A stretch of 37,114 bases of DNA from a virus (IMGVR_UViG_3300029084_000052:1-37114), one strand, 5' to 3'. Positions 3,165 to 31,788 are shown, numbered from the stretch's first letter. Numbers and translations: made by a program. Notes: generated by a model from the sequence alone, not told the origin.

Positions 3165-4265
3165 TCATTCCATTTCGAAATCATCAATCCTCACTTCAAG
3201 CTCCAGACTGGTCGTAAAACCGTTATCCGGGCTGACGGTATGTGTCAGGGTGGTAATGGTCCATTCCGCATCATCTATCGGCTGTTTAAAGCCGCTGACC
3301 TTCACAGGCATTTCCGTGTAGAGATCCGCCCGACCTTCCGCCAGTTGTAGCGAGAATGACGCAACACCGCGTTGCAGGCGTTCCCACTGCATTTTCGCTG
3401 CCCGTTCGGCGTTACTCCGATTAGCATAGGTGCGATTAAGTACCAGCACGTTTTCATCCGTCCCCACCAGGTAATCGCCCTGCTTCGCTTCCGGCTCTTT
3501 CTTCTGCTTCTTAGTCCTGCGCTTACGCTTCACCGTGGTGCTTTTTTTCTTCGCGGGTTCGCGGGTATGCAACCAGCTGGCTATTACACCCGTGTAAGCT
3601 CCGCGATCCGCCAGGGTAAAGCGGTGACTGTCGCCGTCCTTACGTGTGATAGTGATCACCGGTAGTGGTTTACCGCTGGCGCTTTTACCCTGTCCCTGCC
3701 GGATGAATAACAGATTGCCATTTTTCACCGACGCAATAGCACCGTACTGTCGCGCCAGCCGCATCAGAAAACTGCCGTCACTCTCATTAGTCTGGTCTAT
3801 ATGCTCCACGGGCTTATCCGACAGGTCTTTACCCAGTGCCATCTTCAGCTTGTGCCGCGCGGCTATTTCCTTCACCACTTCCCCGATGGTGGTGTTATGC
3901 CACGATTTTTCACGGCGGGTATTCAGCGTTTCACGAAAATCAGCACTTCGCGCCCGGATAGTCAGGCGGTCCGGTGCGCCAGTGTGTTCAATCTCGTCCA
4001 CCGTGAATGCCCCTTTCGGGAAAAGCGGCAGCCCCTTCCAGCCCAGCGCCAGCGTAATGACCGCACCACGGCGCGGCAGCACGATTTTTCCGTCGGCGTC
4101 GTCCAGCTCCAGATCAAGCTGGTCCGCTTCAAAGCCCCGATTGTCCGCCAGCGTCAGACTCATCAGACGGTTATCCAGCACAGTGGTGATATCCCTGCCC
4201 TCAATACTGATACTGAATGCCGGAGTTTTGTTGCCTTTGTTAAGCAGTTCAGAGCTGAAATTCAT
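3165..4265 (-). CDS. D: Tail protein D (late control gene D family)
   Basis: 366-aa ORF at the P2 gene D position; its start overlaps the gene U stop. Confidence 0.8.
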   Translation of the reverse strand: MNFSSELLNKGNKTPAFSISIEGRDITTVLDNRLMSLTLADNRGFEADQLDLELDDADGKIVLPRRGAVITLALGWKGLPLFPKGAFTVDEIEHTGAPDRLTIRARSADFRETLNTRREKSWHNTTIGEVVKEIAARHKLKMALGKDLSDKPVEHIDQTNESDGSFLMRLARQYGAIASVKNGNLLFIRQGQGKSASGKPLPVITITRKDGDSHRFTLADRGAYTGVIASWLHTREPAKKKSTTVKRKRRTKKQKKEPEAKQGDYLVGTDENVLVLNRTYANRSNAERAAKMQWERLQRGVASFSLQLAEGRADLYTEMPVKVSGFKQPIDDAEWTITTLTHTVSPDNGFTTSLELEVRIDDFEME

Positions 4266-4747
4266 GACAGCAGCCCTCCCACCGTTTTACTGATATCGCT
4301 TAAGGCAGATGTTGCCATGTCCTGCAGATTATTCAGCTGCGCACTGAGATCACCAAACATATCGGACAGGGATTCATCCACCCGTTTGAGCGACAGGGTG
4401 AACTCAATCCGGCGCGGCATACCGTCGCGGAAAAACTCCGTTTTGGTCTGATTCAGTCCCTCAATCACATACATGCCGTAAATCGTGCCGCTGCCTTCAA
4501 TCAGGGGCCATGCTTTCCCCTGTTCTGCCATCTGCTCCAGTGCCAGCAATGACAACCTGCCGCCTGTTATCTCCGGCATAAGAACACCAGAAAGCGTCAG
4601 CATGTCGTTGTCCGGTCCCAGAAACTGCGTGGATGGACGACGATTTATCCGACTGTTAGCCGCATGTCGCCAGCTGCGCTGATACTGCAGTTCCTGATAC
4701 GGCACGGTGCGCAGCATAAACACGTACAATCCCAGCACCATCATCAT
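4262..4747 (-). CDS. U: Tail protein U
   Basis: 161-aa ORF at the P2 gpU position, coupled to T and D. Confidence 0.8.
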   Translation of the reverse strand: MMMVLGLYVFMLRTVPYQELQYQRSWRHAANSRINRRPSTQFLGPDNDMLTLSGVLMPEITGGRLSLLALEQMAEQGKAWPLIEGSGTIYGMYVIEGLNQTKTEFFRDGMPRRIEFTLSLKRVDESLSDMFGDLSAQLNNLQDMATSALSDISKTVGGLLS

Positions 4748-7700
4748 GCGTCGTATCCCCCCTGATCGCTGTAGTTACTCCTGGCTTTTGCCTTCAGCCT
4801 GCGTTCACGTTCATCAAGCTGGCGGGCCACCTCCCGTGCAATATCCTGCGCACTTTGTCCTGGCTGCGTCTGGATGATGATCTGCGTTGGTGCCTCAATC
4901 TGGTAAACGGGCGGCACAGTGACTGCGCGACTCACCATCGCTTCACCGCCTTTCGCGGGAAGCGCCAAAGGATGCAACGGTGGAAACTCTGCTGGCGCGG
5001 CAGCAACGCCCATCATTCCGGCGACAACCGCAGCCAGTGCAGCGGTATTTCTCCGGCTGGTCACGTTTGCCGGGCCATTGACAATTTCAGGCCCGTTTTC
5101 ACCGACAATGCCAAACTGCCCGCGCGGGATATAGCCGCCGCGGTCATACATCCCCGCAAAGCCATATCCCCATGATGGAAAACCACCCGATGACATCATC
5201 ACTTTACCGTCTGCATTCACCGTCACAGGTTGCTGACGCGTCACGCTTTCCGGCAGTTTTGCCTTTGCGGCCTCTTTACTGACAATGCCAAGTTTCTCCA
5301 GTAACCAGGAAACACCGGATTTCAGGGAGTCCAGCGGATGCATAACCATATTCAGCCCTTCCGCCAGTGCCTCCCCGAATCGTCGCCCCATTGCCGCTGC
5401 GCTCTGCAGTTCGGCAGAGGTCGACTTAACGGGCGTCAGCAGATCAGTAAACCAGCCCCACAGCGCCTGTACTTTATCGCCAATCCACTGAAATACAGGC
5501 TTAAGTGGTTCGAATGCTGCACTGACGGGACCAGCCGCCGCTTTGAATCCTTCCACCACGCCACCGAGAAATGCGGTGATGGGTTGCCAGTATTTCCAGA
5601 CAACCAGCGCCACGCCCGCCAGTGCAGTAACCACAAGACCTATCGGACTGAGCAGAGCACCTAACAGACCAGATATGGCATACAGGGCAACGCGCAGCAT
5701 CGCCAGTGGACCAGATGCCAGTACTCGCAGCACCGTGCCTGCGGCGGCCAGTCCACCGCGCAGTACCGCCAGAGGATTCATAAACATCACAGCAACAGCA
5801 CGTAAACCGGATAATCCAGACCGCAAAAGTGCAACCGGCGCACCTGCTACAGTTTTCAGGACATTTCCCGTCAGTGATGCCGTGCGGCGCAAAGACGACA
5901 ACGGCGCAGTAAGTAAACCTGCGGCGTTGCCCGATGAAGCAAGCCCGCGTCGCAGCAGTGCCAGTGGTGCGCCAGCCAGCCAGGATAACGCGCTGCTGGT
6001 TCGAGTTACTGCTGCCGTAACGGAAGATAACGTTTTGATACCCAACACAGAGAATCCCAGACGGATCACTGCCAGCGGCCCCAGCACTGCAGCCAGCGCC
6101 ACCGCTAAGGTGCCGAGGCCGACGGTAACCGCAGCCACAACAGCCGATGCTTTCATCAGTGTGCCTGTCAGTTCCGGGTTAGCTTCCACCCAGCGACGCA
6201 ACGCCCCCGTGACGCTTTTCACCGTGTACAGAATATCCATCAGCGGCTGGCGCAGCGTTTCGCCCAGGCTGCTGAAGGTGTTCTGCGCTCCGGTTTTGAC
6301 CAGCAACCACTGCGCAGAAAGTGAATCCTTGTTAATGTCGGATTCTTTCTGCATGGAGCCGAGCGCATCATTGCCCGCTGTCAGTTTTAACTGACGCTGC
6401 AGTTCCGGCAGGTTGTTTGCCAGTTTCGCCGCGTCATCGCCAAACTCTTTACCAAACAACATAGTCATGGCAGACAGGCGCTTGTCCTGCGGCAGCGCGT
6501 TTACCTTCTCCAGCACGCGCTGGATGGTTCCCATCGCATCCTTCGTCATCTGCTTTTCAATCACTTCAGGATTGAGTTTCAGCAGATTCATCCCTTCAAA
6601 GAAACTCTTGCTTTGCATGGTGGCAATGGACAATTCACGCACCATCGCGTTTGCTGCACTGGCTGCAACCTCTGGCGCAGCGCCCAGTGTCAGGAAGGTG
6701 GAACCCAGCGCCGCCGCTTTACGATAATCCAGACGGTCAGCCACACCGCCCAGACGTTGCATCACATCAATGATGTCTGCCCCTTTCGACATGGCGTTAT
6801 CATCCAGATAGTTCAGCGCATCACCGAGCTGTTCAATATTGCGGGTGGGGATTTTGTAGAGCTGGGCGATTTTCCCCAGACTTTCTGACAGTTCATCCGC
6901 TGGCAGCTCAAAGGCTGTTGCCGCCTTTGCTGCCGTACTGGCGAAGGCCAGCAGGTCACGTTTCTGATCTTCCCAGCTGTCGTCAGGGTTTGCGACGTTC
7001 ATGCGCGCACCACCTTCAACCAGTGCAGCGAAGTCCACCGCACCGTTTTCCATCGGCAACTGTTCGCTGGCAGCCTTGATGGCATCCTGCATTTCATAAA
7101 AACGTGCAGTGCGGTTGCCATTATCGTCACGCAGACCATTGACCTGCTTTGCCACACCTTTCATGGCATCTTCCATGCTGGTATAGCTTTTTACTGCCGC
7201 CATCACTGGCGCACCCATTGCCAGCCCTGCAGCCGTGGTGGTGGCTCCGGCACCTGCAATACGATCACGCACCTCCAGCGAACGGGCATAACTGGCACGC
7301 GCTGCATTCATCCTGCGCTGAGCTTCCCCCAGTCGCTTCAGCCGCGCCTCCTGTTTCGAAAGTTCCTGGTTATAACGTGATGTTTCACGGGCTAAACGGG
7401 CAGTTGCTCCCGCATCGTCTTTCGCAGAAATTCCCGCCCGGTACAGTTCAGCACGCACAAGCGCCGTCTGCTGCTGCAGCTTTTTCTGGCGTTCTTCCAG
7501 GCGCTGAACAGCCAGCCGTTGACGGCCCAGAGCAACAACCTGACGTTGCGAAGGCGGCCCCATCGCTCCCAGTTCCTGACTGAGCAAATTTGCACGCTGG
7601 CGGGCATAGTTCAGCCTGTCGCCTAATTTCTGATTTTCTGCCTGCAGCTTTCGGAAGCTGTCCAGACTGCTCCCGGCCTGATCAAGCTGCTTTATTGCAT

Positions 7701-8304: not shown

Positions 8305-8820
8305 TCAGAGGCCGAGGGCGTTGCGGTGCGCTTCCATCAGGTCCACACCGTCCACAATTTCCACCATGTTGATAAGGTCCACTTCATAGAGCACCTCACC
8401 ATTGATGGTCAGCTTCGCGTAGCTGTTGGTACTGGTCACTTTGGTGGTGTTGCTTTCGCCCGTCTTCCACTCGCCGGAATCCACTTCTTTGTGACGTCCA
8501 CGCACGACAAGCTCCACGGCCTGCACTTCCCCGGTATCGTCACGCTGAATAGAGCCGGTAAAGCGCAGCTGGATGCCATCCACCGTGGCTTTACCCATCT
8601 GTTTAAACAGCAGCAATTCAGTACCACCAATGGAAAATTCTGTGTCCAGCGCACTGTCATCAAGCCCCAGATCCACATCCACCGCACCCGGCATTCCGCC
8701 GCCGCGATACTTCTCATATTTGCGGGTAAATTTCGGCAGCGTCAGCGACTCAACGATCCCCTGCCAGTTGTTCCCGTCGTTAAACAGGTTCAGGTGTTTT
8801 AATTTGCGTGGTAAAGCCAT
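8305..8820 (-). CDS. FII: Major tail tube protein FII
   Basis: 171-aa ORF at the P2 FII position, directly downstream of FI. Confidence 0.85.
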   Translation of the reverse strand: MALPRKLKHLNLFNDGNNWQGIVESLTLPKFTRKYEKYRGGGMPGAVDVDLGLDDSALDTEFSIGGTELLLFKQMGKATVDGIQLRFTGSIQRDDTGEVQAVELVVRGRHKEVDSGEWKTGESNTTKVTSTNSYAKLTINGEVLYEVDLINMVEIVDGVDLMEAHRNALGL

Positions 8821-8829
8821 GTTGTCCCC

Positions 8830-10002
8830 TTACGCGCTGACCTGGCTGGCGAAATTCACCAGGTACTGATCGGTGATGCGCTGACGCAGCATCAGGTTTT
8901 CAAGTGGCGGCACTGGCGTGTAGTCGTAGTCGATGGTGAGTTTTCCGGCTTTCAGCGTGTCTTTGTCGTTCACCGACTCATCCAGCCAGCAATCACCACC
9001 AATGAGATAGCCCTGACTGACCAGGCTGCGCATTTTGGCGCGGATACCTTCGATAATGTCGCGGGCCAGCGACGGGTTAAGCGGTTTATCCACCGCCCAC
9101 ATGTGTGCTTCTGCCATCGTGTCCATCAGCACCTGCGCCGTGCGGGTGTAGTTTTCGAAGGCAAAGAGCGGGTCATCACTCAGGCAGCGGGACCCCCAGA
9201 AGCGGAAACCGTCTTTACGCACAAGCGTGGTGACGTCGTTCTGGTTCAGCAGACCTGCATCGGTTGCCGGGTCCTGCAGATCCCAGAACACATCTGCAGA
9301 AATTCCGGTGACACCGTTCACGCCCACGTTGGAAAGGCTTTTGTGCCATCCGGTCTGCTCGTCAATTTTGGCGCGCAGACCAAGTGCACGGGCGGTGGCA
9401 TATGCCGTTGCTTCGGCATTCAGCACCGTGTCCCAGCCAGTAAAGTCAGGCCAGATCAGCATCCCTTCGCGCTGGCTGAAGTTTTCGCGGTAAGTGATCG
9501 CCTCCTGCACTGTCTTGCAGCCATACGCTGACAGGTAAGCAAATCCACGCAGGCTTTGCGCCACGCTCAGCAACTCAGTAGCTACCGCCTTGGTGTCGTG
9601 GCCTGGCACGCCGAGAATGCGCGGTTTAACGCCGAGCTGTGACTGGGCAGATAACAGGGCTTTCATACCTGTTTTTTTACCTTCAGCAGTCACTGCGCCG
9701 ATGATATTGGTCGTGGTTTCGTCTTCCGTTTCACCCTGCGGCACACGCACAACAATGGTCACGGGTTTTGCCTGGTCAGCGATGGCATCCAGCGAACGGG
9801 CCAGAGTACCTGACTCACCCGCTTTACCGCTGGCAGTCAGCACATCAGTGATCAGCACGGGTTTATTAAGAGGAAACATTTTTGCATCGGCATCATCGCC
9901 CGTGCAGACCATACCCACGATGGCGGTGCTCACCGTGGTAATAGATCGGGTGCCTTCGTTGACTTCAACAACGCGCACCCCGTGGTGGTAATCCTGAGCC
10001 AT
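8830..10002 (-). CDS. FI: Contractile tail sheath protein FI
   Basis: 390-aa ORF at the P2 FI position and of matching length. Confidence 0.85.
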
Positions 10003-10078
10003 AGTGGCGAACCTCCTGATTGGATTAGGCTTCGCCCTATGTTGAAGTGATTGTGCCTGACAAACAGCTAAGCGCAGT

Positions 10079-10096
10079 TGTGTCGTTATTCACACA
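10079..10096 (-). promoter_or_regulatory. TGT-N12-ACA element upstream of FI, candidate Ogr-dependent late promoter (PF-like)
   Basis: TGTgtcgttattcacACA about 85 bp upstream of the FI start codon. Confidence 0.45.
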
Positions 10097-10144
10097 AAAT
10101 AACGGTATTTGTCTGCTTGCAGGGATAATCAACATAATGCTGAT

Positions 10145-10711
10145 TCAGGGGGATTCATTGATCTTATTTGCCGGAAATTTTCTATAAATGGTAGAAACGC
10201 CTACATCAAAAATCAGTGCAATACGCTGTATTGATTCTCCGGCCTCGAGTAAACGCCCAATCTGTGCCCACTGTTCGGTGGTCAACTTAGGACGGCGTCC
10301 ACCTACTCTGCCTTTGGCACGAGCTGCAGCCAGCCCTGCCCTGGTACGTTCAACTATCAGTTCGCGTTCCATTTCAGCCAGGGCACCCATGACATGAAAA
10401 AAGAAACGGCCCATTGGGGTACTGGTATCAATACTGTCAGTCAGGCTTCTGAAATTCACACCACGCTGGCGCAACTCTTCTATCAGCGTAACAAGATGCC
10501 GCATACTGCGCCCCAACCTGTCCAGCTTCCAGACAACCAGCGTGTCTCCTGCCGATAGTGTCCTGAGCAGTTTTTTCAGCCCCGGTCTGTCGGACTTAGT
10601 GCCACTGATTTTGTCCTCAAAAATCCGCTCACATCCCGCGCAGTTCAGTGCATTTCGTTGCAAATCGGTGTTCTGGTCATTTGTTGACACGCGTACATAG
10701 CCAATAAGCAT
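10145..10711 (-). CDS. Site-specific DNA invertase, serine recombinase of the Pin/Gin/Hin/Cin family
   Basis: MLIGYVRVSTNDQNTDLQRNAL...LVVWKLDRLGRSM...GRFFFHVMGALAEMERELIVERT is near-identical in pattern to e14 Pin and Hin from memory; start set at the second ATG after a GGGGG Shine-Dalgarno. Confidence 0.85.
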   Translation of the reverse strand: MLIGYVRVSTNDQNTDLQRNALNCAGCERIFEDKISGTKSDRPGLKKLLRTLSAGDTLVVWKLDRLGRSMRHLVTLIEELRQRGVNFRSLTDSIDTSTPMGRFFFHVMGALAEMERELIVERTRAGLAAARAKGRVGGRRPKLTTEQWAQIGRLLEAGESIQRIALIFDVGVSTIYRKFPANKINESP

Positions 10712-10765
10712 GATCATCCCCCTGAATAAAAACCGGAGATGATGCCAGTTAGCTGTTACCTCTGC

Positions 10766-10791
10766 ATTTTCTTAAACGTTGGTTTGGGAGA
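10766..10791. repeat. Invertase crossover site A (26 bp, imperfect dyad, core TT)
   Basis: TTTTCTTAAACG TT GGTTTGGGAGAA; the right half-site is the inverted copy of the left half-site of site B. Confidence 0.6.
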
Positions 10792-11236
10792 AGGTGCTCC
10801 AGCTATTGGCGTTCCGTTCTTCTGGCCGTCCGCTGCAATGCCAAATACTGTAATCGACAGCTGGTCCAGTATGGTGTTTTTGAAGTTCAACGGCGCGAAA
10901 TTCTCTGCCACTGATTATCCTGTGCTGGCGAAAGTATTTCCTTCGCTGGTATTACCTGAAGCCCGCGGTGATTTCATTCGTATCTGGGATGACGGACGAG
11001 GTGCAGACGGTGGTCGCGAATTATTAAGCTGGCAGGCAGCTACAAACTTTTCTCAGTTTGCCGGGAATATAGGCGAAGGTGCGGGACACGCAATTAACTT
11101 TCATGATGGCATCGCCGGAAATCAGCCAGGATTTTCACGATTTAATTTCACCAGTAACTCTGTGGGTGATGGTGTGAATTTTGTTGCTGTCAGACCGCGC
11201 AATATTGCATTTAACTTTCTGGTGAGGGCTAAATAA
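10780..11236 (+). CDS. Alternative tail-fibre C-terminal segment, silent in this orientation and fused to the H constant region only after inversion
   Basis: Reading frame open across site A (..LGLGEGAPAIGVPFFWPSAAMP..) with no start or promoter of its own; its stop overlaps the next ATG (TAATG). Confidence 0.55.
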
Positions 11237-11829
11237 TGAAACCTGTTTTTGATAAAAATGGGCTGGCTACAGTGCCGGGCGATATGCGTTGTTTTTATTA
11301 TGATGCTGAAACATCTGAGTATACGGGCTGGTCTGATGAATATATTAATACTGGCGTAAGTATGCCCGCCTGTTCCACTGGTATTGACCCTGGCGAAAAC
11401 ATTCCGGGAAGAGTGGCAGTATTTACAGGTAAGGGATGGAGCCATGAAGAAGACCATCGCAATGAGACTGTTTACTCAATCGAAAATGGTGCTGCTGTTA
11501 CAGTGGATTATATCGGTGCCATCAAAAACGGTTATGTCACGCTTTCACCGTTAACGCCATATGATAAATGGGATGGTGAGAAATGGGTGACAGATACTGA
11601 GGCACAACACGGTGCCGCAGTAGACGCGGCAGAAGCACAGCGCCAGTCACTGATTGATGCTGCAATGGCTTCCATCAGTCTGATTCAGCTGAAATTACGG
11701 GCCGGACGGAAGCTAATGCAGGCAGAAACCACCCGACTTAACATTGTGCTGGATTACATTGACGCGGTGACGGCAACAGATACCAGCACCGCGCCTGATG
11801 TCATCTGGCCTGAGCTGCCGGAGGCGTAG
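11236..11829 (+). CDS. Alternative tail fibre assembly protein (U'/G' analogue)
   Basis: 197-aa ORF coupled to the alternative fibre segment; its C-terminus DTSTAPDVIWPELPEA parallels the minus-strand assembly protein C-terminus DTSTAPDIEWPTPP. Confidence 0.65.
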   Translation: MKPVFDKNGLATVPGDMRCFYYDAETSEYTGWSDEYINTGVSMPACSTGIDPGENIPGRVAVFTGKGWSHEEDHRNETVYSIENGAAVTVDYIGAIKNGYVTLSPLTPYDKWDGEKWVTDTEAQHGAAVDAAEAQRQSLIDAAMASISLIQLKLRAGRKLMQAETTRLNIVLDYIDAVTATDTSTAPDVIWPELPEA

Positions 11830-12244
11830 GCCATTCAATATCGGGTGCTGTTGACGTATCAACACGCATCAGCAGCACACGGTATTTCTTCCATTGGGTG
11901 AGAGTTGAAGTTTCTTCATCAGTTGCGATACCAGCATCAACAGCATCCTGACGCCAGGATATTTCACTGTCAGCTTTTGCACGAAATGTGGCTTTCATGT
12001 TTTCTGCATCTGATATTTTCTGTTCTGGTGAAAGCGGCGGCTCATCAACCCATGCAAGGGTCCCTGAAACCATTCCCAGCATTTTTCCTGTTGGCTTATT
12101 TCCCCCATTAAATCTGACAGCATCCTCATCGCTGATTTCAATACCATCCTGCGGCCATGTCCCCTCCTTGATATAACTTTCATATAGCGCTGCGTTGTAG
12201 ATTGCATTTTCGGACGGGCTGTAAACACTTTTAACTTTATTCAT
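11801..12244 (-). CDS. G: Tail fibre assembly protein (gpG-like), active orientation
   Basis: 147-aa ORF directly downstream of H on the minus strand. Confidence 0.7.
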   Translation of the reverse strand: MNKVKSVYSPSENAIYNAALYESYIKEGTWPQDGIEISDEDAVRFNGGNKPTGKMLGMVSGTLAWVDEPPLSPEQKISDAENMKATFRAKADSEISWRQDAVDAGIATDEETSTLTQWKKYRVLLMRVDTSTAPDIEWPTPPAAQAR

Positions 12245-12248
12245 TCTG

Positions 12249-13688
12249 TTATCTCCCTTTCGCTATATAGCAAAGATTAAACCCACCGGCGCCTGACATA
12301 CGGGCTGTAAAACCCGTTCTTGAAGTACCAGTTGAGTTAACTCCATAAGCAGGCATGGTTGCTGGAGAAAGCAGAGACTCCTGGATATCTGCCATTGTCA
12401 GTGTAATTGATTCGACCCGCGCGGGGAAAGGTAGCGGGAAAACAACATTCGTCCCTGTCTGTCCAACGGGGAAACCGAAAATACCCCATTGTGTAATTAC
12501 CCCATCCGGCCCCTTACTCCATCCAGATTTAGGATTCGGCCAGTCTGCTGCTCCAGAGTGCCCCGTTGTAAAACTACTCATATCTGGTACTTGCCCGGTA
12601 TCCGTTCCGACGTTCCTCGTTGCCGCTTCTCCCAAACCAAGGTATGTGAGAAGACCAGCTACATCCTTTCCACTCAAATTGGTAAGCGTATTGTCCAGCG
12701 GTTGTTTACCTGCCAGCGCATTAAGCATTGTCGTGGCAAAGTTCGGATCATTCCCCAGTGCCGCCGCCAGTTCGTTCAGTGTATCCAGTGCAGCAGGTGC
12801 AGAACCCACCATTCCTGCAATCGCCGATTTCACAAAAGCCGTAGTGGCAATCTGTGTATTGTTGACCGACTGCGCCGCCGTGGGGGCTGTTGGCTTTCCG
12901 GTGAGTGCCGGACTCGACAACGGTGCTTTTAGTGCCAGCGCATTGTTAATGGTGGTACTGAAATTCGGATCATTGTTAATGGCTGCGGCTATTTCTTTCA
13001 GCGTGTCCAGCGTGGCTGGCGCACCATTAATAAGGGCCGTCAGTGCCGCCTGTACAAACGCAGTGGTCGCAACCTGCGTGGTATTATTTCCCGCCGCTGG
13101 CGTTGGCGCTTTGGGGGTTCCGGTAAATGTCGGGCTGGCTTTTGGCGCGTACTGTGAATGCGGGTCCGGTGCGGCAAGATGTTTTGCCATCTGATCATCC
13201 GCGTACACCTTCAGCTCCAGTGCCTTGTCATCCACATACTTGCGGGTTGCCAGCACTACAGCAGGGTCGATTTTCAGGGTGATATTGTCCGTGCTGCTGG
13301 TAATCAGCACCATGCGCACGGTCTGAGTGCGCCCGCTACCTTCAGCCAGTTGCGGCTTATAGCTTTCCGGGCAGTTGCCCACGGCAATCAACGCCCCAGA
13401 CTCATCAAACAAGCCCACTTCACGTATCCACCAACCGCCCTCGTTTTCAGGGATCACCTGTTCGGCAATAATCTGGCTGCTGTTCTGCGGGTCGATATAA
13501 AGCATATTCAGCGCAGCCCGGCGTTTCTCATTTACCAGTGCCGTCTGCTTTGCGTCCGGCGTTGGCAATACTCCACCGCCATCGCCCACCGCCATATGGG
13601 TAATTTTTAGCGGCACACCGAGCGCGGCGGCGCTGGCAAGTTTCGCCGCGCCAATATCCGTCAGCAGGGTATAAAATTTTGTGCTCAT
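12249..13688 (-). CDS. H: Tail fibre protein H, with constant N-terminal part outside and variable C-terminal part inside the invertible segment
   Basis: 479-aa ORF with Ala/Thr-rich repeats; crossover site B lies at about codon 346 (..LLTYLGLGE..). Confidence 0.8.
   Translation of the reverse strand: MSTKFYTLLTDIGAAKLASAAALGVPLKITHMAVGDGGGVLPTPDAKQTALVNEKRRAALNMLYIDPQNSSQIIAEQVIPENEGGWWIREVGLFDESGALIAVGNCPESYKPQLAEGSGRTQTVRMVLITSSTDNITLKIDPAVVLATRKYVDDKALELKVYADDQMAKHLAAPDPHSQYAPKASPTFTGTPKAPTPAAGNNTTQVATTAFVQAALTALINGAPATLDTLKEIAAAINNDPNFSTTINNALALKAPLSSPALTGKPTAPTAAQSVNNTQIATTAFVKSAIAGMVGSAPAALDTLNELAAALGNDPNFATTMLNALAGKQPLDNTLTNLSGKDVAGLLTYLGLGEAATRNVGTDTGQVPDMSSFTTGHSGAADWPNPKSGWSKGPDGVITQWGIFGFPVGQTGTNVVFPLPFPARVESITLTMADIQESLLSPATMPAYGVNSTGTSRTGFTARMSGAGGFNLCYIAKGR
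12627..12652. repeat. Invertase crossover site B (26 bp, core AA), inside gene H
   Basis: TTCTCCCAAACC AA GGTATGTGAGAA; half-sites match 10 of 12 as a dyad, and a 13-bp stretch is shared in inverted orientation with site A. Confidence 0.6.
12714..13136 (-). repeat. Internal tandem duplication of about 70 codons within tail-fibre gene H
   Basis: Two consecutive units read SPTFTGTPKAPT..TTAFVQAAL..LDTLKEIAAAINNDPNF.. and SPALTGKPTAPT..TTAFVKSAI..LDTLNELAAALGNDPNF.. Confidence 0.6.
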
Positions 13689-14290
13689 GGATTCACTCTC
13701 ATTGTGTCAATAACATGGACCGCCCCGCCTTCATGCGCGGTGCCACCGGAAATAATCGTTTCGTTGATATACGGATAGATCGTGATTTCTTCGCCAAGAT
13801 AGCTGGCGGCTCCCACCCAATGCGGGCCGCTGGTCTGCAGATTGATGGACATGCCGATCATGTGGCGGCTACATGGTTTGGCATCGCTTATCAGTCGCTC
13901 AAGTTCCAGATAGGTATCTTCAGTGATGCCCTGGTCCTGCACGCCGATATCCAGGCGAAACGTGCCCGGTGTTTCTCCGGTCTGCCACCACTCAATAATG
14001 CGGATCAGGAATCCGAACGGCTCCACCACCCGCCGCACGGCACTGGTGGTCCCTTTATGCTGATGAATATAAAAAGCATCCTTCACCACCTGGCGCTTGA
14101 CGCTTTCTGTCCAGCCCTCGTCCCAGCGATCCACAGAGAACGCCCAGGCGAGATAAGGCAGGAAACTGACCGGACAGGTTGCCGGATTCCACAAGTCACG
14201 AAGCGGCACCTGCAGATCAGAAATCCCGCTGCAGGTTTGCGCCAGTCGGCGCTCCAGTGGTGTTGAACCCGGTGGCAGCAGACTATTCAT
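13685..14290 (-). CDS. I: Baseplate assembly protein I
   Basis: 201-aa ORF between J and H, in P2 gene order. Confidence 0.75.
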   Translation of the reverse strand: MNSLLPPGSTPLERRLAQTCSGISDLQVPLRDLWNPATCPVSFLPYLAWAFSVDRWDEGWTESVKRQVVKDAFYIHQHKGTTSAVRRVVEPFGFLIRIIEWWQTGETPGTFRLDIGVQDQGITEDTYLELERLISDAKPCSRHMIGMSINLQTSGPHWVGAASYLGEEITIYPYINETIISGGTAHEGGAVHVIDTMRVNP

Positions 14291-24968: not shown

Positions 24969-25586
24969 TTACCAGTTAAAAATTGATGAGCTGCGAATTG
25001 CAGGAACATCCGATGGATTTCGTTTGGCAGCTGGTTCCATCAACTTACGCTTGTTAAATGCCTGATCAATATAATACTCAGGATTTTTAATAAAGACAGA
25101 GTATTTTACCAATGCACAATATACGTCAGAGTCATTATAATGGGGAACTGTTTTTTCATAAACATGATTCTTTCTAACCAGATAAGGCAAATAATAATCA
25201 TATCCCCAACCTGGCGTTCTTAGACTTATAGAACATCCGCATGATGGATCTGCACATACTGCAGGAGTAAACACACTGTCGTAAATTTCATCTCTGATAA
25301 CACCAATTAGACCATTATAGTTTTCTCCCCAGAGTGATGCTTGAATTTCAGAGTTTATAAATGGACGATTTTTGGTTTCCGTTCCAATAAGAACGACAGT
25401 AACCGTTGAGTCTTTTAAAAAATCCTCACGAATAGTCCTCATTATTGTTTCATCAGTGTTAGTTGTACTAATGTCACCATCACTTACCGACTTATCAATA
25501 AACGATTCTCCTCCGAATAAATCAATAATCTCATCTTTGAGATCTTGTTCGTTAGCATGATGATAACTAAGAAACGTCTTATGCAT
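24969..25586 (-). CDS. TIR-like domain protein (ThsB/DUF1863-like), accessory gene
   Basis: Begins MHKTFLSYHHANEQD (TIR beta-A-like F-L-S-Y); a later VTVVLIGTETKNRPFINSEIQ stretch resembles the ThsB-type core with a candidate catalytic Glu; AT-rich coding sequence. Confidence 0.55.
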   Translation of the reverse strand: MHKTFLSYHHANEQDLKDEIIDLFGGESFIDKSVSDGDISTTNTDETIMRTIREDFLKDSTVTVVLIGTETKNRPFINSEIQASLWGENYNGLIGVIRDEIYDSVFTPAVCADPSCGCSISLRTPGWGYDYYLPYLVRKNHVYEKTVPHYNDSDVYCALVKYSVFIKNPEYYIDQAFNKRKLMEPAAKRNPSDVPAIRSSSIFNW

Positions 25587-26317
25587 TATTCACTCCATTT
25601 ATCAACATTTATATCAAACTCTTTGACTACCTTATCATTGAAGAAATCGTTTACTTCTTTAAAACCTTCCAATACTTGACTAAAATGATAATAATGCTTT
25701 TGTATAGTACTTATAGGGGTTAAATGATACGGCAGTGATATAAATTCGCCGTTAGGGTCTCTATCCTTTGTGGTCACTTTATCATTATCTGAAACATATT
25801 TATGCCATCTCCGATAATTATTTTGATGCTTTGTTAAAAAAGAGTTTAACGTTTTCAAAATTTCATTTGAAAGTAAATACAGTTTTTTATCTCTTTTTTT
25901 CTTCACATCTAGTAATTTCATTTCATCTCTAATGAATTTATAGCACTCATAATATGAGTTTAAAACTTCTTCAATTGAGTCATAATTCGGATCAAATTTA
26001 AATAATGTTCGCTTCGTATCCAGATAATTTTTTACGCTCTTTTTAAAAAGAAGATCAGACTTATTTAGTAAAATATTAATACCACCAAAACTAAGTTGCT
26101 CCAATCTCAATGAATATCTTTGATGAAATGCACCGACCAGCAAGATATAAGCAACTAAAAATAGTATTAATACTGATAGAAAAGCACGAATTATGCTTAC
26201 ATTTGACATGAAATTAACTATAAACCACCATTTTTCAAACGGTGAAAACGGAATGCACCCCATGATAATAAGTAGAAGAACAAAGATACAACCCCATAAA
26301 ACCCACAATCTGTACAT
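25586..26317 (-). CDS. Two-TM membrane protein with a roughly 170-aa Lys/Glu-rich C-terminal domain of unknown family; partner of the TIR-like gene
   Basis: Start at the ATG (MYRLWVLWGCIF..) after an AAAAGGA Shine-Dalgarno; two hydrophobic helices; stop overlaps the TIR-like start (TAATG). Confidence 0.5.
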   Translation of the reverse strand: MYRLWVLWGCIFVLLLIIMGCIPFSPFEKWWFIVNFMSNVSIIRAFLSVLILFLVAYILLVGAFHQRYSLRLEQLSFGGINILLNKSDLLFKKSVKNYLDTKRTLFKFDPNYDSIEEVLNSYYECYKFIRDEMKLLDVKKKRDKKLYLLSNEILKTLNSFLTKHQNNYRRWHKYVSDNDKVTTKDRDPNGEFISLPYHLTPISTIQKHYYHFSQVLEGFKEVNDFFNDKVVKEFDINVDKWSE

Positions 26318-26470
26318 AAGAAAGATCCTTTTTCTTTTTATAATACTGCAACTACACCTCAAGTCAAAACCCTCTTCTGATATTACCCTCTACTACAGTA
26401 ACCCATCACATGACCTCCGACTTATCAGAAGACTAGCCAAACTTTCTCAATCAAATCAGGTTGCGCGCGC

Positions 26471-26495
26471 TCGTATCCCCGCCACGCCTGCCCGC
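26471..26495 (-). other. cos-like sequence (candidate phage cohesive-end site)
   Basis: Minus strand reads GGCGTGGCGGGGA.., matching the first 13 nt of the P2/186 19-nt cohesive end as I recall it; lies in a short GC-rich island. Confidence 0.4.
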
Positions 26496-26605
26496 TTTAT
26501 GTAGTAGTTTTCATGCAGGTGCATGATCTACGCGAAAGCCCGCCAATTCTGGCGGGCCCTAGCAAAAACGATCCTCAAACGATCATGCGATCTCATGCAG
26601 CATAG

Positions 26606-27448
26606 TCATGCACGATCATTTGACTCAGCATCTGCTGCACGCTTGCTGCGCGAAGATGCACTTTTACTATCAATCTTTCGACAGTTCTTTCTATCCCTGG
26701 CTTCATTTTCTTTAAATTTGTTATATGTCTCAGTATCAAAAAACGAAATTGTTTCAACCTCATCTTTTGGTATGAGCACACGGAAATCTTCGATATTAAG
26801 CCGAGACATTCCACTTATCACACCACTATCAAGATAATGTTGGTGATAGTTAGTCGTGATACTAATCGTTAGATCATCTTTATCCCGATATCCGCTTAAC
26901 ATCGGGAGAAGTTCAAGGTGCTCTGAAAGCCCGTTTTCTAACGCCGGACAAGTAACAAGACCAACATAGATTTTGCGAGACGACAGAGTTGCTATGATCG
27001 GAAACTGTCTTGCGGACGCTTCCATGAGTAATGATTCGAAAGCGTTATTACCTACAGCTTTAGCTAAGGCATCCCAGCGACGATCTCCACGTGATGTGCG
27101 TAACTTATTTCCAAAACCTGAAATCGCAGCGAGGACAATTGAAATCATAACCCATGCTATCTGTTTGATTTCATTTATTCTTTGAAGTTTGTCTTTCGAT
27201 GAAGACAACATGCCATTAAAACTGTCAGGTGTTAGATTCAAGGCATTAGCCAGCCAACGAAACCCTCCGCTGACGTTCAAAATAAAGGTGAAAAAACCGC
27301 CAAGGAGAAAAAAAACGATACCCCAGGCAGCCACAAAAAAATAAGCGTCCCAGCCGTTGGAACGCTTATATCGGTATCTTGTTGAAAGTGATAGGTTTAC
27401 ATAAATAAAACCACTAACCAAAATCACTGCTAAAAGTAATGTTGCCAT
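26606..27448 (-). CDS. Three-TM membrane protein with a soluble C-terminal domain, unknown function; accessory gene
   Basis: 280-aa ORF with three N-terminal hydrophobic helices, AT-rich; coupled to the upstream 71-aa gene (TAATG). Confidence 0.5.
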   Translation of the reverse strand: MATLLLAVILVSGFIYVNLSLSTRYRYKRSNGWDAYFFVAAWGIVFFLLGGFFTFILNVSGGFRWLANALNLTPDSFNGMLSSSKDKLQRINEIKQIAWVMISIVLAAISGFGNKLRTSRGDRRWDALAKAVGNNAFESLLMEASARQFPIIATLSSRKIYVGLVTCPALENGLSEHLELLPMLSGYRDKDDLTISITTNYHQHYLDSGVISGMSRLNIEDFRVLIPKDEVETISFFDTETYNKFKENEARDRKNCRKIDSKSASSRSKRAADAESNDRA

Positions 27449-28519: not shown

Positions 28520-30934
28520 TTAATACAGGTTTCGCCACTTATCATCTTCCTGCAAACGCTGGTTCCGATAGAAGATACGCAGGCCTGCTCCTGACGGAAT
28601 ACTGCCGCCGCGAAGGAGTAAATCGACCTCTTTCTCGCTACCATCAAATCCTCTGGACTTCAGCTCATAGACGAGCTGCTGTCGCTGATGGTCTGTAATT
28701 CGCTGTTTGTAGTCTTTACGCCGTTTCGGTTTAACCAGGCGTAACCTTGCTGCCAGTTCCCGGCGCTCTTTTTTGCTCATACTGTGCAGGTAATCGTGCA
28801 ACTGCTTGTCATCCATGCGGGTAATGTCCGTTCTGGTGCCCCCATCAGCTGATTTATCTTTCTCCTGTTGGTTCAAATTTTCAGCAAGGGGACAGTTATT
28901 GCCACGAGTCCAAGGGGCGCAAGCGCCCTGGTCGGCTGCCGCCTCCTGAACGTCAACGGCTTTACGGACCATTTTCCACTTCACTGCATGAGTGCAGATC
29001 TTGCCCTCTGCAATGGGTGACCAGATGCCATAAATACGAATACCGTGATCGCCATAGGCGGTCGGCTCTTCGTTGATTTCATAAGCGGTTCTGATGAGGT
29101 GATATTTACGGGGAACCAGTACGCCGCCCTGCTTCATGATGTAGGTGGCAAAGCAACCAGCATCAGCTGCAGCCAGAATGGCATCAAGGCGCGGGTTATC
29201 CAGTACCGGCGCACCTGCTTTTTTGTCACCCTGTTGCCTTGCCGCCTGACCAGCCAGCAATCGCAGTTCACGGTAAGCCTGACGCCCCGGAATGCCAAAG
29301 AAGCGGAATTGCTGAACACGATGCAGAGACGCCCAGGCATTAACGTATTCAGCGTTATCACGCAGAGATTTACCCGTTTCCTTGCTGATCTCGCCAGCCA
29401 GACCACGCCCGTCAATGTTCTTACTGATGTATTTCGCGATGTAGCTTGTTGGTGTACCTTTGCGCGGGTTTATCAGCTCAGACTTAAAGCGTGGTCCTGT
29501 GTTATTACCCAGCTCCTCGCGGTCTTCACGAATGGCAAACTTACGCAACAAAGCAGTAATGGCGCGGCGATCTTTTTTGCGCATAAAACACAACAGGTGC
29601 CAGTGAACTGTACCGTCATGATGCGGCTCAGCCACCCGCACGCCATACCAGCGCAATCCGGCTTTGTACATCGCCTTACGAAATGCAGCAAACATGCCGA
29701 CCAGATAATCACTGCTTTGTCTTACCGTCGCATTTGTCCAAGTCGGGTTGGGCCTGCCGTTATTTAGCGTGGAATGGAAACGTGACGGACAGGTGATGGT
29801 GTAGAAAACGGCGCAGTCACCGCGCATTTCCGCGATAAGCTCCAGACCTTTAACACATGCCATCATCTCATTGCGGCGATGCGCCGGGTTGCTACTACTG
29901 GCGTTTACCACGTCCTCCATATCCAGCGTGTCGCCGTCTTCGTTCACCAGTTCATGAGAACGGAAAAACTCCAGCGACTTACGGCGCTGCTCACGTTTAT
30001 GCATCACGGCTTCATAGCTGACATAGGGAGATGCTTTTTTGCTGACCAGGCAAACAGCACGCAACTGCTCTTCCCGCCATTCGCAACGCATCTTCCATAA
30101 TTTCCGATACCACCAGTCGGCGCACAACATACGCGCCAGCGAACCCGGAATGAGTTCATAGGGTACGGGTTTACGGCGGTTTCTTTTCCGGCGGAGTTGC
30201 TCAAACGCAGGAGGGATGACATCCAGACGCAGGGTTTCCGCCGCCACCCTTTCCCATGTCTTGCGGATTTCTTCTGGCTTAACGTCATCGGTGGCATACA
30301 AATCACCACAAACTGCATCAAGGCACATGCTCATATGCGCGGCAACAAGGGTAGACAGGCGCTTCACCTGAGCCTGACTCATTTCAGGCAAGATCAGCAG
30401 GCCGTCCAGCCCTTCATGGCTTGCCATAAAACGAAAAGATGCAGATAGCTGGCTGTCGCGTACATGCTCCAGTCGTTCCAGACATGGTTTAATCGTCTCA
30501 CGCAAATAGCGGGAATAAGCCTTTGGCCTGCCCAGGCTGCTGAAGTATTCAATACGTTGCATCAGCGGCTTGCTGATATGGGAAGGCTGGGCGTTAACGT
30601 CCGCCAGTATGACCATGTCCGGATTAAAACGCTGCTGCTCATGCACCAGCTTTGCCCGGCTAATGAGCTTATCCTGCTCCATTTCGCGCTGGACAGGATC
30701 ACGGGATTCATTAAAGAAATAACGCTCCCAGACCTGATCACTCAGTGCCTCGCGGCGCAGTTGTTCCTGCTTGTTATCGGCAGCGTACAGAGTGATCAGG
30801 TTTGAAAGCGCAGAAACCGGCGCAACTTCCGCCGGGTCCAGATAAGGGTTAATCGCCTTTTTCGGGCTGTTCCATGAGAATGCTGCGGCGGCCTCGTTAA
30901 AGCCGCTGCAGTTGTTCATATCAGCATGGCTCAT
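28520..30934 (-). CDS. A: Replication initiation protein A (rolling-circle nicking endonuclease, P2 gpA family)
   Basis: 804-aa ORF of P2 gpA size (about 761 aa) at the P2 A position; its start overlaps the Dam stop. Confidence 0.8.
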
Positions 30935-31788
30935 GCACGCACTCCGTACACGGCAGAACTATCCACGCCACGCGAAGGATCAAATCCCACCCAGCAGCGC
31001 GCCCCAGAAACAGCGATGATTTCTGTTGCAGATTTACTCTCACCAGCTGCTACGCCGATGCTGCGTTTTGCCTTGATGTAGTGGTGAGTAAAATTGCGAT
31101 ACAGCGAACGGATCAGGGATGTGTCACTGTTAGAAACAATGACCGGATGTCCTTCTGATGACCGATGTTCAAGAACGGATGCCAGGTGATACTGGTCATC
31201 TTCAGTGAAACCATCAGTGTGATAGCTGGAAAACGTACCGTCATACGGCGGATCGCAATACACCACATCCCCCGCCTTCAACATCGCCAGCGTTTCATCA
31301 AAGCTGGCGCAGATAAACGTTGCTCGTTGGGCTTTCTCTGCAAATGCGCGAATTTCTTTTTCAGGGAAATACGGATTTTTATAATTACCGTAGGGAATGT
31401 TGAAATGCCCGCTCTTGTTATAGCGACATAACCCACGGTAACCGTGACGATTGAGATACAGGAAATATACCGCTTTCATGAAATCAGTAATTTCAGTTGA
31501 GTAATTAAACTCCTGCCTTATGTTGTAATAAGCCACCTCCCTGTTTGCTTCCTTAAATAAAACTCTGGCGCGAGATATAAACGATTCACAATCAGCGGCA
31601 ACCTTTTTATAGAGGTTGATTAAATCAGGATTAATATCCGCAACCAGATAGCTGGGATAATCCGTCTCCATCATCACAGCACAGGAACCCGCGAAAGGTT
31701 CAACCAGTCGCGGGCCAGCTGGAAGATGTTTTTTCAGTTCGGGCATTACGGCGGTTTTATTTCCCGCCCATTTCAGGATGGTGCTCAT
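30931..31788 (-). CDS. DNA adenine methyltransferase (Dam/D12 class N6-adenine MTase)
   Basis: FAGSCAV (motif I) and DPPY (motif IV); ATG at the [11 protein letters not shown] position overlaps the upstream gene stop. Confidence 0.8.

What the first reader, a model, noticed from the sequence alone, without database searches (positions are those of the whole stretch)
10145..12652. Pin/Gin-like invertase with an invertible tail-fibre host-range switch
A serine invertase gene abuts a 1.9 kb segment bounded by two 26-bp imperfect dyads in inverted orientation, sharing GGTTTGGGAGAAG. One site lies inside H at the constant/variable junction (..YLGLGE..), the other at the start of a promoterless alternative C-terminal segment (..VGLGEGAP..). 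Inversion would swap both the fibre tip and its assembly chaperone, as in Mu G, P1 C and e14 P. Classical P2 lacks this, so the prophage probably makes virions with two host ranges.
Basis: partly seen in the sequence, partly recalled or inferred. Interest (0 to 1): 0.6.

Follow-up and report, generated by a model that had tools for sequence, protein, structure and literature searches.

The report
Invertible tail-fibre switch in P2-like prophage
A P2-like prophage of E. coli carries a Pin/Gin-type DNA invertase that flips a 1.86-kb segment to exchange the tip of its tail fibre and the matching chaperone; the feature is real and almost certainly active, but it is a well-known kind of host-range switch already documented in P2-like prophages.

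Summary
A 188-aa serine invertase (10145-10711, minus strand; 86% identical to PinE of e14, 75% to Gin of Mu) lies next to a 1858-bp segment. The segment is bounded by two 26-bp sites, 10767-10792 and 12627-12652, in inverted orientation with the same AA/TT core. A scoring matrix built only from gix, cix and pix sites finds exactly these two sites in the 37-kb window (31 bits each; next best 7.8). The invertase-proximal site matches e14 pix at 25 of 26 positions. Flipping in silico fuses the 350-aa constant part of fibre protein H in frame to a silent 151-aa tip, followed by its own chaperone gene. Public assemblies hold essentially the same prophage in both states. In L016 the flanks are 99.9-100% and the segment 100% identical but inverted, and a called 501-aa gene matches the predicted fusion at 500 of 501 residues. 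Sister isolates ZF31 and ZF34 differ by one exact inversion at the homologous sites. Inversion in P2-like prophages of E. coli has already been shown experimentally (PMC4272514). Verdict: interpretation supported, already known, low interest. A side observation is more interesting: the identical segment also occurs in Mu-like prophages, with identity ending exactly at the crossover cores.

The parts
10145..10711 (-). Serine DNA invertase gene, Pin/Gin type, 188 aa. The mechanical ORF extends to the ATG at 10717.
   Evidence: Pfam Resolvase plus HTH_7. 86% identical to PinE, 75% to Gin, 98.9% to the annotated invertase of phage 500465-1. E 1.4e-91 to the Gin structure 3UJ3, gapless over residues 1-184. 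The catalytic motif YVRVSTNDQ with Ser9 is present.
10622..10693 (-). Predicted recombinational enhancer inside the 5' end of the invertase gene (gene nt 19-90). Putative Fis sites at 10675-10689 (TGTCAACAAATGACC) and 10627-10641 (GCGCGGGATGTGAGC), with centres 48 bp apart. The proximal centre is 97.5 bp from the crossover core.
   Evidence: This stretch is positionally homologous to the enhancer annotated in the P1 record at cin nt 19-90. It is 57/72 identical to cin and 62/72 to pinE, against 67.6% and 74.9% for the rest of the gene. Fis binding is inferred, not tested.
10767..10792 (.). Invertase-proximal 26-bp crossover site, TTTTCTTAAACG|TT|GGTTTGGGAGAA, core at 10779-10780.
   Evidence: PWM score 31.1 bits. 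The reverse complement is 25/26 identical to the e14 pix site next to pinE. It is the breakpoint of the natural inversions.
10781..12638 (.). Invertible segment, 1858 bp between the two cores.
   Evidence: Present at 100% identity in the same orientation (L011) and the opposite orientation (L016) relative to 99.9-100% identical flanks.
10781..11236 (+). Silent alternative C-terminal tip of fibre protein H (Hv', 151 aa from GLGE to the stop), StfE-like. The upstream ATG at 10739 is probably spurious.
   Evidence: It is in frame with the constant part of H after in-silico inversion. It is 41% identical to e14 StfE and 97% to the expressed tip in L005. The Pfam Collar hit is weak and below threshold (E 0.011).
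11236..11829 (+). Alternative tail-fibre assembly chaperone (Tfa', 197 aa), silent in this orientation.
   Evidence: Pfam Caudo_TAP, E 8e-25. 63% identical to e14 TfaE.
11801..12244 (-). Chaperone in the currently expressed orientation (gpG-like Tfa, 147 aa). It converges on Tfa' and overlaps it by 29 nt.
   Evidence: Pfam Caudo_TAP, E 9.8e-33. 99.3% identical to the Tfa of E. coli ESBL 15.
12249..12638 (-). Variable C-terminal tip of H in the currently expressed orientation (129 aa, gp53-like C-terminal domain).
   Evidence: Pfam Gp53-like_C at H residues 394-478. 96% identical to the tip in ESBL 15.
12627..12652 (.). 26-bp crossover site inside H, TTCTCCCAAACC|AA|GGTATGTGAGAA, core at 12639-12640.
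   Evidence: PWM score 31.0 bits. 21/26 identical to the e14 pix site in stfP. It is the breakpoint of the natural inversions.
12639..13688 (-). Constant N-terminal part of tail fibre protein H (350 aa), outside the segment.
   Evidence: Pfam Phage_tail_fib at residues 1-150. 96.6-99.7% identical across relatives that carry different tips.

Best explanation
This is a functional Gin/Pin-type DNA inversion switch in a P2-like (Peduoviridae) prophage of E. coli, sitting where P2 carries Z/fun, between G and FI.

Proposed mechanism. Invertase dimers bind the two 26-bp sites. Together with host Fis bound to an enhancer in the first ~90 nt of the invertase gene they form an invertasome. They cut at the identical AA/TT core and rotate, which inverts the 1858-bp segment. 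The promoter and the 350-aa constant part of H stay fixed.

Consequences. In the present orientation the late operon makes a 479-aa H with a gp53-like tip, plus the 147-aa chaperone. In the other orientation it makes a 501-aa H' with an StfE-like tip, plus the 197-aa chaperone. A lysogen culture would therefore release virions with two receptor specificities, a form of bet-hedging on host range.

What is shown: the anatomy, family membership, reading-frame continuity, and both orientations occurring in nature. What is inferred: Fis dependence, the inversion rate in this particular strain, and that the two tips recognise different receptors.
For: - Domain content and 75-86% identity to the experimentally characterised Gin and PinE.
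- Exactly two sites in 37 kb match a PWM built from gix, cix and pix. They are inverted relative to each other and share the same core.
- The enhancer-equivalent stretch is better conserved than the rest of the gene, with 48-bp spacing between the putative Fis sites and 97.5 bp to the core. [quoted passage not shown]
- Residues reported as invertase-specific for Fis/enhancer contact are kept: K46, K47, R50 and Q150, R153, L154 (alignment to Gin; PMC3798978).
- In-silico inversion gives an uninterrupted 501-aa ORF.
- Both silent ORFs (151 and 197 codons) are intact although they have no promoter or start of their own.
- L016 has 100% identical segment and left flank but the segment inverted. 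Its called H' gene is 500/501 identical to the prediction. L011 has the window's orientation.
- E. coli ZF31 and ZF34 are identical over 7023 nt except for an exact 2272-nt inversion at the homologous sites.
- Inversion in two P2-like prophages of EPEC E2348/69 was shown by sequencing and PCR (PMC4272514).
Against: - Only one orientation is present in the window, as expected for a single assembled sequence.
- The simple consensus scan found no sigma-70-like promoter upstream of the invertase gene. This carries little weight, because these invertases are known to be weakly expressed.
- The distal putative Fis site has a G+C-rich centre (GCGCGGGATGTGAGC).
- The StfE-like tip has no significant Pfam domain, so its receptor-binding role rests on homology to StfE and on its position.
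- Nothing here shows that the prophage is inducible.
Confidence: 0.9

Rival explanations
1. The module is a frozen relic. It descends from an inversion system, but in this prophage it no longer flips because of weak expression, a degenerate enhancer or suboptimal half-sites. Only the 479-aa H is ever made.
For: No consensus promoter was found for the invertase. The H-side site differs from e14 pix at 5 of 26 positions. Some relatives (L014, L020) carry the same segment next to a truncated invertase remnant, which shows that decay does happen.
Against: The invertase ORF is intact and keeps all the catalytic and Fis-contact residues that were checked. Both sites score as high as the genuine sites. 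The silent cassettes have no stop codons. Prophages with 100% identical left flank and segment occur in both orientations.
Confidence: 0.06
2. The main role of the switch is in the lysogen rather than the virion. Inversion creates a chimeric fibre-like protein that blocks adsorption of other phages, as reported for PinQ-driven inversion of the e14 P segment, where StfE2 blocks T2.
For: PMC12529663 reports this for e14. The silent cassette here is StfE/TfaE-like (41% and 63% identical). The invertase is 86% identical to PinE.
Against: Here H lies inside a complete P2-type late operon, which in P2 is not expressed in the lysogen (established knowledge of P2 Ogr-dependent late transcription). e14 is a defective remnant, whereas about 82% of this prophage's structural region matches deposited phage genomes at 96-97% identity.
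Confidence: 0.03
3. The repeats are only a conserved coding motif (GLGE) shared by homologous fibre genes, and the orientation differences between assemblies are assembly artefacts.
For: The inner half-sites encode GLGE in both cassettes.
Against: The outer half of the invertase-proximal site is non-coding, yet that site is 25/26 identical to pix. PWM specificity is high. Identity breaks fall exactly at the cores in independent assemblies. Population heterogeneity that leads an assembler to report either orientation would itself be evidence of inversion.
Confidence: 0.01

Closest known systems
P segment and PinE of the defective prophage e14 (E. coli K-12)
   Same: Closest characterised relative. 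The invertase is 86% identical. The invertase-proximal site is 25/26 identical and the fibre-side site 21/26. The layout is the same: constant fibre part, then tip plus Tfa, then convergent Tfa' plus tip', then the site and an invertase gene transcribed away from the segment. The two tfa genes overlap by 29 nt in both. The segment sizes are similar: 1858 bp here, 1797 bp reported for e14 (PMC12529663).
   Different: e14 is a defective lambdoid remnant with a short fibre stub (StfP, with stfE a pseudogene). Here the module sits in a complete P2-type tail operon with a 350-aa constant H. One tip is gp53-like rather than StfP-like.
G segment and Gin of phage Mu; C segment and Cin of phage P1
   Same: Same recombinase family (75% identity to Gin). 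Same 26-bp site design and same Sc-[Sv U / U' Sv']-invertase logic. The enhancer lies in the 5' end of the invertase gene.
   Different: The Mu and P1 segments are larger: about 3 kb between the annotated G-segment boundaries in Mu and 4,256 bp in P1. The gix core is GA rather than AA. In P1 cin points toward the segment, with cixL at its 3' end. The virion backgrounds differ.
Invertible loci in P2-like prophages of EPEC E2348/69 (Goldberg et al. 2014, PMC4272514)
   Same: P2-like prophages with Hin-family invertases and tail-fibre inversions of about 1.8-2.2 kb. Both orientations were shown to coexist in clonal cultures by sequencing and PCR.
   Different: One EPEC locus has three inverted repeats and four variants. 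The window has only two sites. Sequence identity to the EPEC loci was not measured here.
Annotated invertase and tail-fibre modules of Peduoviridae phages, e.g. Escherichia phage 500465-1 (Wadgaonvirus, NC_049342), Cartapus, Klebsiella phage KP12
   Same: The flanks are 96-99.5% identical and the invertase 98.9% identical. Gene order is the same.
   Different: The cassette content of the segment differs, since only 49-58% of the 3.6-kb query is covered. The two tips are reassorted between otherwise near-identical phages.
Carotovoricin Er and Fels-2 Fin (cited through the reference list of PMC4272514)
   Same: By my recollection both elements are P2-type. [quoted passage not shown]
   Different: Different hosts (Pectobacterium, Salmonella). 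These papers were not held in the library, so the comparison rests on their titles and on my own knowledge.

Membership tests
Fis/enhancer-dependent serine DNA invertases (Hin/Gin/Cin/Pin) | Small serine recombinase with an N-terminal resolvase catalytic domain and a C-terminal HTH_7 DNA-binding domain, about 185-195 aa | tested here: met
   Pfam Resolvase E 2.9e-53 and HTH_7 E 6.4e-16. The protein is 188 aa.
Fis/enhancer-dependent serine DNA invertases (Hin/Gin/Cin/Pin) | Catalytic serine in the N-terminal GYxRVSTxxQ motif | tested here: met
   MLIGYVRVSTNDQ with Ser9, aligned to Gin Ser9. That residue is Ala in the 3UJ3 chain and Ser in 4M6F.
Fis/enhancer-dependent serine DNA invertases (Hin/Gin/Cin/Pin) | Close sequence relationship to invertases rather than resolvases | tested here: met
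   308 bits to Gin against 122 bits to gamma-delta resolvase. 86% identical to PinE and 75% to Gin.
Fis/enhancer-dependent serine DNA invertases (Hin/Gin/Cin/Pin) | Invertase-specific basic helix-B residues (Hin K47, K/R48, K/R51) and DBD helix-1 residues (Hin Q151, R154, L155) that contact Fis and the enhancer (PMC3798978) | tested here: met
   The window protein has K46, K47, R50 and Q150, R153, L154, the same as Gin in the gapless alignment. The +1 offset to Hin numbering comes from my recollection of the Hin sequence.
Fis/enhancer-dependent serine DNA invertases (Hin/Gin/Cin/Pin) | Two 26-bp sites in inverted orientation, each made of two imperfect 12-bp half-sites around a 2-bp core, with identical cores | tested here: met
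   Sites at 10767-10792 and 12627-12652, core AA/TT, PWM 31 bits each.
Fis/enhancer-dependent serine DNA invertases (Hin/Gin/Cin/Pin) | Cis-acting recombinational enhancer with two Fis sites about 48 bp apart | tested here: inconclusive
   The stretch homologous to the annotated P1 cin enhancer is 79% identical. Two 15-mers that fit the loose Fis consensus lie 48 bp apart and 97.5 bp from the core. The same DNA also encodes the most conserved part of the protein, so the conservation is confounded. Fis binding cannot be tested with these tools.
Fis/enhancer-dependent serine DNA invertases (Hin/Gin/Cin/Pin) | The segment actually inverts | tested here: met
   Shown for near-identical prophages: L011 against L016, where the left flank and segment are 100% identical and the right flank 99.9%, and ZF31 against ZF34. 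It was not observed in the strain the window comes from.
Invertible tail-fibre host-range modules (Mu G, P1 C, e14 P) | Constant N-terminal fibre part outside the segment, two alternative C-terminal parts inside it in opposite orientations, both fusions in frame | tested here: met
   479-aa H and in-silico 501-aa H'. H' exists as a called gene in L015, L016 and L017.
Invertible tail-fibre host-range modules (Mu G, P1 C, e14 P) | Each alternative tip is followed by its own tail-fibre assembly chaperone | tested here: met
   Two convergent Caudo_TAP genes at 11236-11829 (+) and 11801-12244 (-).
Invertible tail-fibre host-range modules (Mu G, P1 C, e14 P) | The two orientations give different host ranges | not testable with these tools
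   The two tips are unrelated in sequence: one has a gp53-like C-terminal domain and the other is StfE-like. This is suggestive only.

The most novel reading that the evidence does not exclude
The 1858-bp segment behaves as a portable cassette that the invertase sites themselves move between unrelated co-resident prophages.

The identical segment (100% over 1858 nt) occurs in this P2-like prophage, in a second P2-like lineage, and in Mu-like prophages. In each case identity starts and stops at the 2-bp crossover cores and the flanks are unrelated. One assembly (L013) has the segment flanked on both sides by invertase genes. This is what a crossover between two different prophages would produce.

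If site-specific recombination between prophages causes this, rather than homologous recombination within the segments, then Pin-type invertases drive both exchange of receptor-binding modules across phage families and large chromosomal rearrangements.
Probability: 0.35. Interest if true: 0.45.

Novelty: already known. Interest (0 to 1): 0.15.

Why it matters
For this strain, it means the prophage probably releases two virion types with different receptor specificities. It also means genome assemblies of the locus can legitimately differ in orientation. Annotation pipelines mis-handle the locus: the silent tip is called as a separate "phage tail protein", and in L005, where the segment is in the flipped state, the H' ORF, intact by my translation, is annotated as two partial pseudogenes. 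It adds nothing new to the biology of DNA inversion, because the mechanism, the family and its occurrence in P2-like prophages are all established. The only lead that goes further is the sharp-edged sharing of the identical segment between P2-like and Mu-like prophages.

Tried and rejected
- Third crossover site. I looked for a three-site shufflon like the EPEC locus. The PWM scan found only two sites in the window and in each related locus.
- Loose pattern. AAACCNNGGTTT with 2 mismatches is uninformative: 16 hits against 17.7 expected.
- Promoter and terminator scan of 9950-12700. No invertase promoter was found. A weak hairpin at 10731-10750 is no better than chance.
- Pfam on the silent tip alone gave only a sub-threshold Collar hit.
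- Complete E. coli genomes. None carries both cassettes together in the window's orientation at 80% coverage or more. One reaches 82% in the flipped orientation but has a different second cassette. The exact combination turned up only through the exact-protein look-up in draft assemblies.
- Papers. The Johnson 2015 review, Nguyen 2001 and Kutsukake 2006 are not held. Two paper look-ups failed on term length.
- One script failed because locus files hold several records each.
- Not done: I did not fetch hix and Hin from Salmonella, so the Hin numbering rests on memory. I did not use the large protein-database searches or structure prediction, because the answer did not depend on them.
Full report
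**What is there**

The window is E. coli chromosome (ybjL-ybjM-grxA, 99.7% identical to several complete genomes) followed by a P2-like prophage. The prophage runs from ogr/D to an integrase gene at the window's end. About 82% of the stretch 2700-27600, which holds the tail, lysis, head and packaging genes, is 96-97% identical to deposited Peduoviridae genomes such as Klebsiella phage KP12.

Reference P2 carries Z/fun between its tail-fibre chaperone gene G and the sheath gene FI. This prophage carries the module under study at that position:

| Coordinates | Strand | Feature | Evidence |
|---|---|---|---|
| 8830-10002 | - | sheath gene (FI) | |
| 10145-10711 | - | serine recombinase gene, Pfam Resolvase + HTH_7 | |
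| 10767-10792 |. | 26-bp site | |
| 10781-11236 | + | start-less ORF, 151 codons | |
| 11236-11829 | + | Caudo_TAP chaperone gene | |
| 11801-12244 | - | convergent second Caudo_TAP gene | |
| 12249-13688 | - | tail-fibre gene H, 479 aa (Phage_tail_fib N-terminus, Gp53-like_C C-terminus) | |
| 12627-12652 |. | second 26-bp site, inside H | |

**Checking the observation**

The two sites form the longest inverted repeat in 8500-13500 (27 nt, 81% complementary) and share the exact 13-mer GGTTTGGGAGAAG. Written as invertase sites they are TTTTCTTAAACG|TT|GGTTTGGGAGAA and TTCTCCCAAACC|AA|GGTATGTGAGAA. Each has two imperfect 12-bp half-sites around a 2-bp core, and the core is the same once the inverted orientation is allowed for.

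I took the authentic sites from annotated records: gix from Mu, pix from e14 in MG1655, and cixL and cixR from P1, where the crossover positions are annotated. The invertase-proximal site is 25/26 identical to the pix site next to pinE. The site in H is 21/26 identical to the pix site in stfP.

A position weight matrix trained only on those five known sites, not on the window, scores the two window sites at 31.1 and 31.0 bits. The next best 26-mer in 37 kb scores 7.8, and the best over 20 shuffled windows is 13.2. So there are exactly two sites, they are far beyond chance, and there is no third one.

**The recombinase**

Its likely start is the ATG at 10711, giving 188 aa. Relatives are called at that length, and the Shine-Dalgarno GGGGGA lies 5 nt upstream. 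It is 86% identical to PinE, 75% to Gin, and 98.9% to the annotated invertase of Escherichia phage 500465-1. It aligns without gaps to the Gin crystal-structure chains at E 1e-91, against E 2.5e-34 for gamma-delta resolvase.

The catalytic motif YVRVSTNDQ is present. So are the residues that McLean et al. (PMC3798978) describe as specific to Fis/enhancer-dependent invertases. Their Hin positions 47, 48 and 51 correspond here to K46, K47 and R50. Hin 151, 154 and 155 correspond to Q150, R153 and L154, the same as in Gin.

**The enhancer**

The P1 record annotates the Cin enhancer at nt 19-90 of cin. The same stretch of the window gene (10622-10693) compares as follows:

| Compared with | Enhancer stretch (72 nt) | Rest of gene |
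|---|---|---|
| cin (P1) | 57/72 (79%) | 67.6% |
| pinE (e14) | 62/72 (86%) | 74.9% |

Two 15-mers that fit the loose Fis consensus, TGTCAACAAATGACC and GCGCGGGATGTGAGC, have centres 48 bp apart. The proximal centre is 97.5 bp from the crossover core. This matches the roughly 100 bp reported for Hin.

The evidence is consistent with a working enhancer but not conclusive, because the same DNA encodes the most conserved part of the protein. The 48-bp spacing rule and the Fis consensus come from my own knowledge of the Hin and Gin literature.

**What inversion would do**

Inverting 10781-12638 in silico joins the 350-aa constant part of H (...LLTYL) in frame to GLGEGAPAIGVPFFWP.... This gives a 501-aa H' with no internal stop, immediately followed by the 197-aa chaperone gene. 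The gp53-like tip and its 147-aa chaperone gene then become the silent, start-less set facing the invertase.

The silent tip is StfE-like and its chaperone TfaE-like (41% and 63% identical to e14). On its own it gives only a sub-threshold Collar hit.

**Evidence that it really flips**

1. The whole 3.6-kb locus and its in-silico flipped version each find many complete E. coli genomes at about 79% coverage and 94-98% identity. Related loci are therefore deposited in both states.
2. E. coli ZF31 and ZF34, both described as from a swine feces sample from Nantong, are identical over a 7023-nt stretch except for one exact 2272-nt inversion. Its ends fall in the homologous 26-bp sites, and the half-sites are exchanged as a crossover at the core predicts.
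3. An exact-protein look-up of the silent chaperone found draft assemblies with the same prophage:
   - L011 has the window's orientation, with the segment 100% and the flanks 99.9% identical.
   - L016 has the left flank 100%, the right flank 99.9% and the segment 100% identical over all 1858 nt, but the segment is inverted. The switch in strand falls exactly at 10781 and 12638.
   - The 501-aa gene called in L015 and L016 is 500/501 identical to my predicted H'.

**Comparison with what is known**

The layout is that of the Mu G, P1 C and especially the e14 P segments. The 29-nt overlap of the two convergent chaperone genes is shared with e14.

Goldberg et al. (PMC4272514) showed by sequencing and PCR that two P2-like prophages of EPEC E2348/69 carry such segments of about 1.8-2.2 kb, and that the variants coexist in clonal cultures. 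A 2024 preprint notes that a DNA invertase with inverted neighbouring genes is frequent at this P2 hotspot.

The module is annotated in many phage records. Part of the 3.6-kb query is matched in 2964 of 5426 complete E. coli genomes. That query also contains the constant part of H, so this number is an upper bound on how many carry an invertible module. The finding is therefore correct but already known.

**Rival explanations**

- Frozen relic. This is unlikely given the intact gene, sites and silent ORFs, and the two orientations seen in 100%-identical relatives.
- Defence role. PinQ-driven inversion of e14 makes StfE2, which blocks T2 adsorption (PMC12529663). A similar role cannot be excluded here, but H sits in a complete late operon, which in P2 is silent in the lysogen.
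- Coding-motif or assembly artefact. This is contradicted.

**Side observations**

The identical 1858-bp segment also occurs in two other backgrounds:

- Mu-like prophages (L018, L019), which have Mu Gp45/46/48-type baseplate genes, a 248-aa fibre and a PinE-like 184-aa invertase.
- Another P2-like lineage (L014, L020), which has a truncated invertase remnant.

In each case identity begins and ends at the crossover cores and the outer half-sites differ with the background.

L013 has the segment between two invertase genes: a P2-type gene on one side and a PinE-like gene on the other, followed by GIY-YIG and methylase genes. This is what recombination between two prophages would produce. It suggests that the sites also serve as joints for exchanging cassettes between phage families. 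I did not pursue this beyond the loci in hand.

The window also carries probable defence cargo: a ThsB-like TIR protein (24969-25586), a PD-Lambda-1 homologue (34302-35978), and a Dam methyltransferase (30931-31848).

Noticed in passing
window 10781-12638; loci L014, L018, L019, L020 at 3546-5403: The identical 1858-bp invertible segment (99.9-100%) sits in Mu-like prophages (L018, L019) and in a different P2-like lineage (L014, L020). Identity starts and stops exactly at the 2-bp crossover cores, and the outer half-sites and flanks are unrelated. This suggests cassette exchange between phage families at the invertase sites.
   Followed up: partly
L013 2910-6026: This looks like a chimeric locus. 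A P2-type sheath gene and 188-aa invertase gene lie on one side of the segment. A second, PinE-like 184-aa invertase gene followed by GIY-YIG and DNA methylase genes lies on the other. There is no constant fibre part. It looks like the product of recombination between two prophages, and possibly a large chromosomal rearrangement.
   Followed up: partly
L014 3133-3545 (same in L020): A P2-like relative carries the same segment and intact-looking sites, but next to the segment there is only the 5' portion of an invertase gene and no full-length one. Its segment could flip only with an invertase supplied in trans.
   Followed up: partly
window 10739-11236; L001 3640-4035; L005 3470-4975: Annotation artefacts. 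The silent fibre tip is called as a free-standing 'phage tail protein' or 'virion structural protein' from a fortuitous ATG (10739 here). In L005, where the segment is flipped, the H' ORF, intact by my translation, is annotated by PGAP as two partial pseudogenes.
   Followed up: partly
window 10100-13700: The two cassettes are reassorted among otherwise near-identical prophages. ESBL 15 shares the gp53-like cassette (96-99%) but not the StfE-like one. S1-CAM-01-A shares the StfE-like cassette (95-97%) but not the other. Strain 10035776-3, with a prophage at the same ybjL site, has a different gp53-like-side cassette and an StfE-type cassette that is only 38-63% identical. No complete RefSeq E. 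coli genome has both cassettes together.
   Followed up: partly
window 24969-27448: Cargo at the P2 old/tin hotspot, between the portal gene and replication gene A. It holds a ThsB-like TIR protein (24969-25586, PADLOC E 3e-12) and two adjacent ORFs (25586-26362, 26606-27448) with no NCBIfam or PADLOC hit. This may be a defence system.
   Followed up: no
window 34302-35978: A 558-aa protein that matches the PADLOC PD-Lambda-1 model (E 5e-120) is encoded between an unassigned 198-aa ORF (33685-34281) and the integrase gene.
   Followed up: no
window 30931-31848: The prophage encodes a Dam-family adenine methyltransferase (TIGR00571, E 6e-97) next to the large replication-gene ORF (28520-30934).
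   Followed up: no
window 10731-10750 (minus strand): A weak terminator-like hairpin followed by a T-run lies between the crossover site and the invertase start. It might limit read-through from the late fibre operon into the invertase gene. It is not better than chance in the scan.
   Followed up: no
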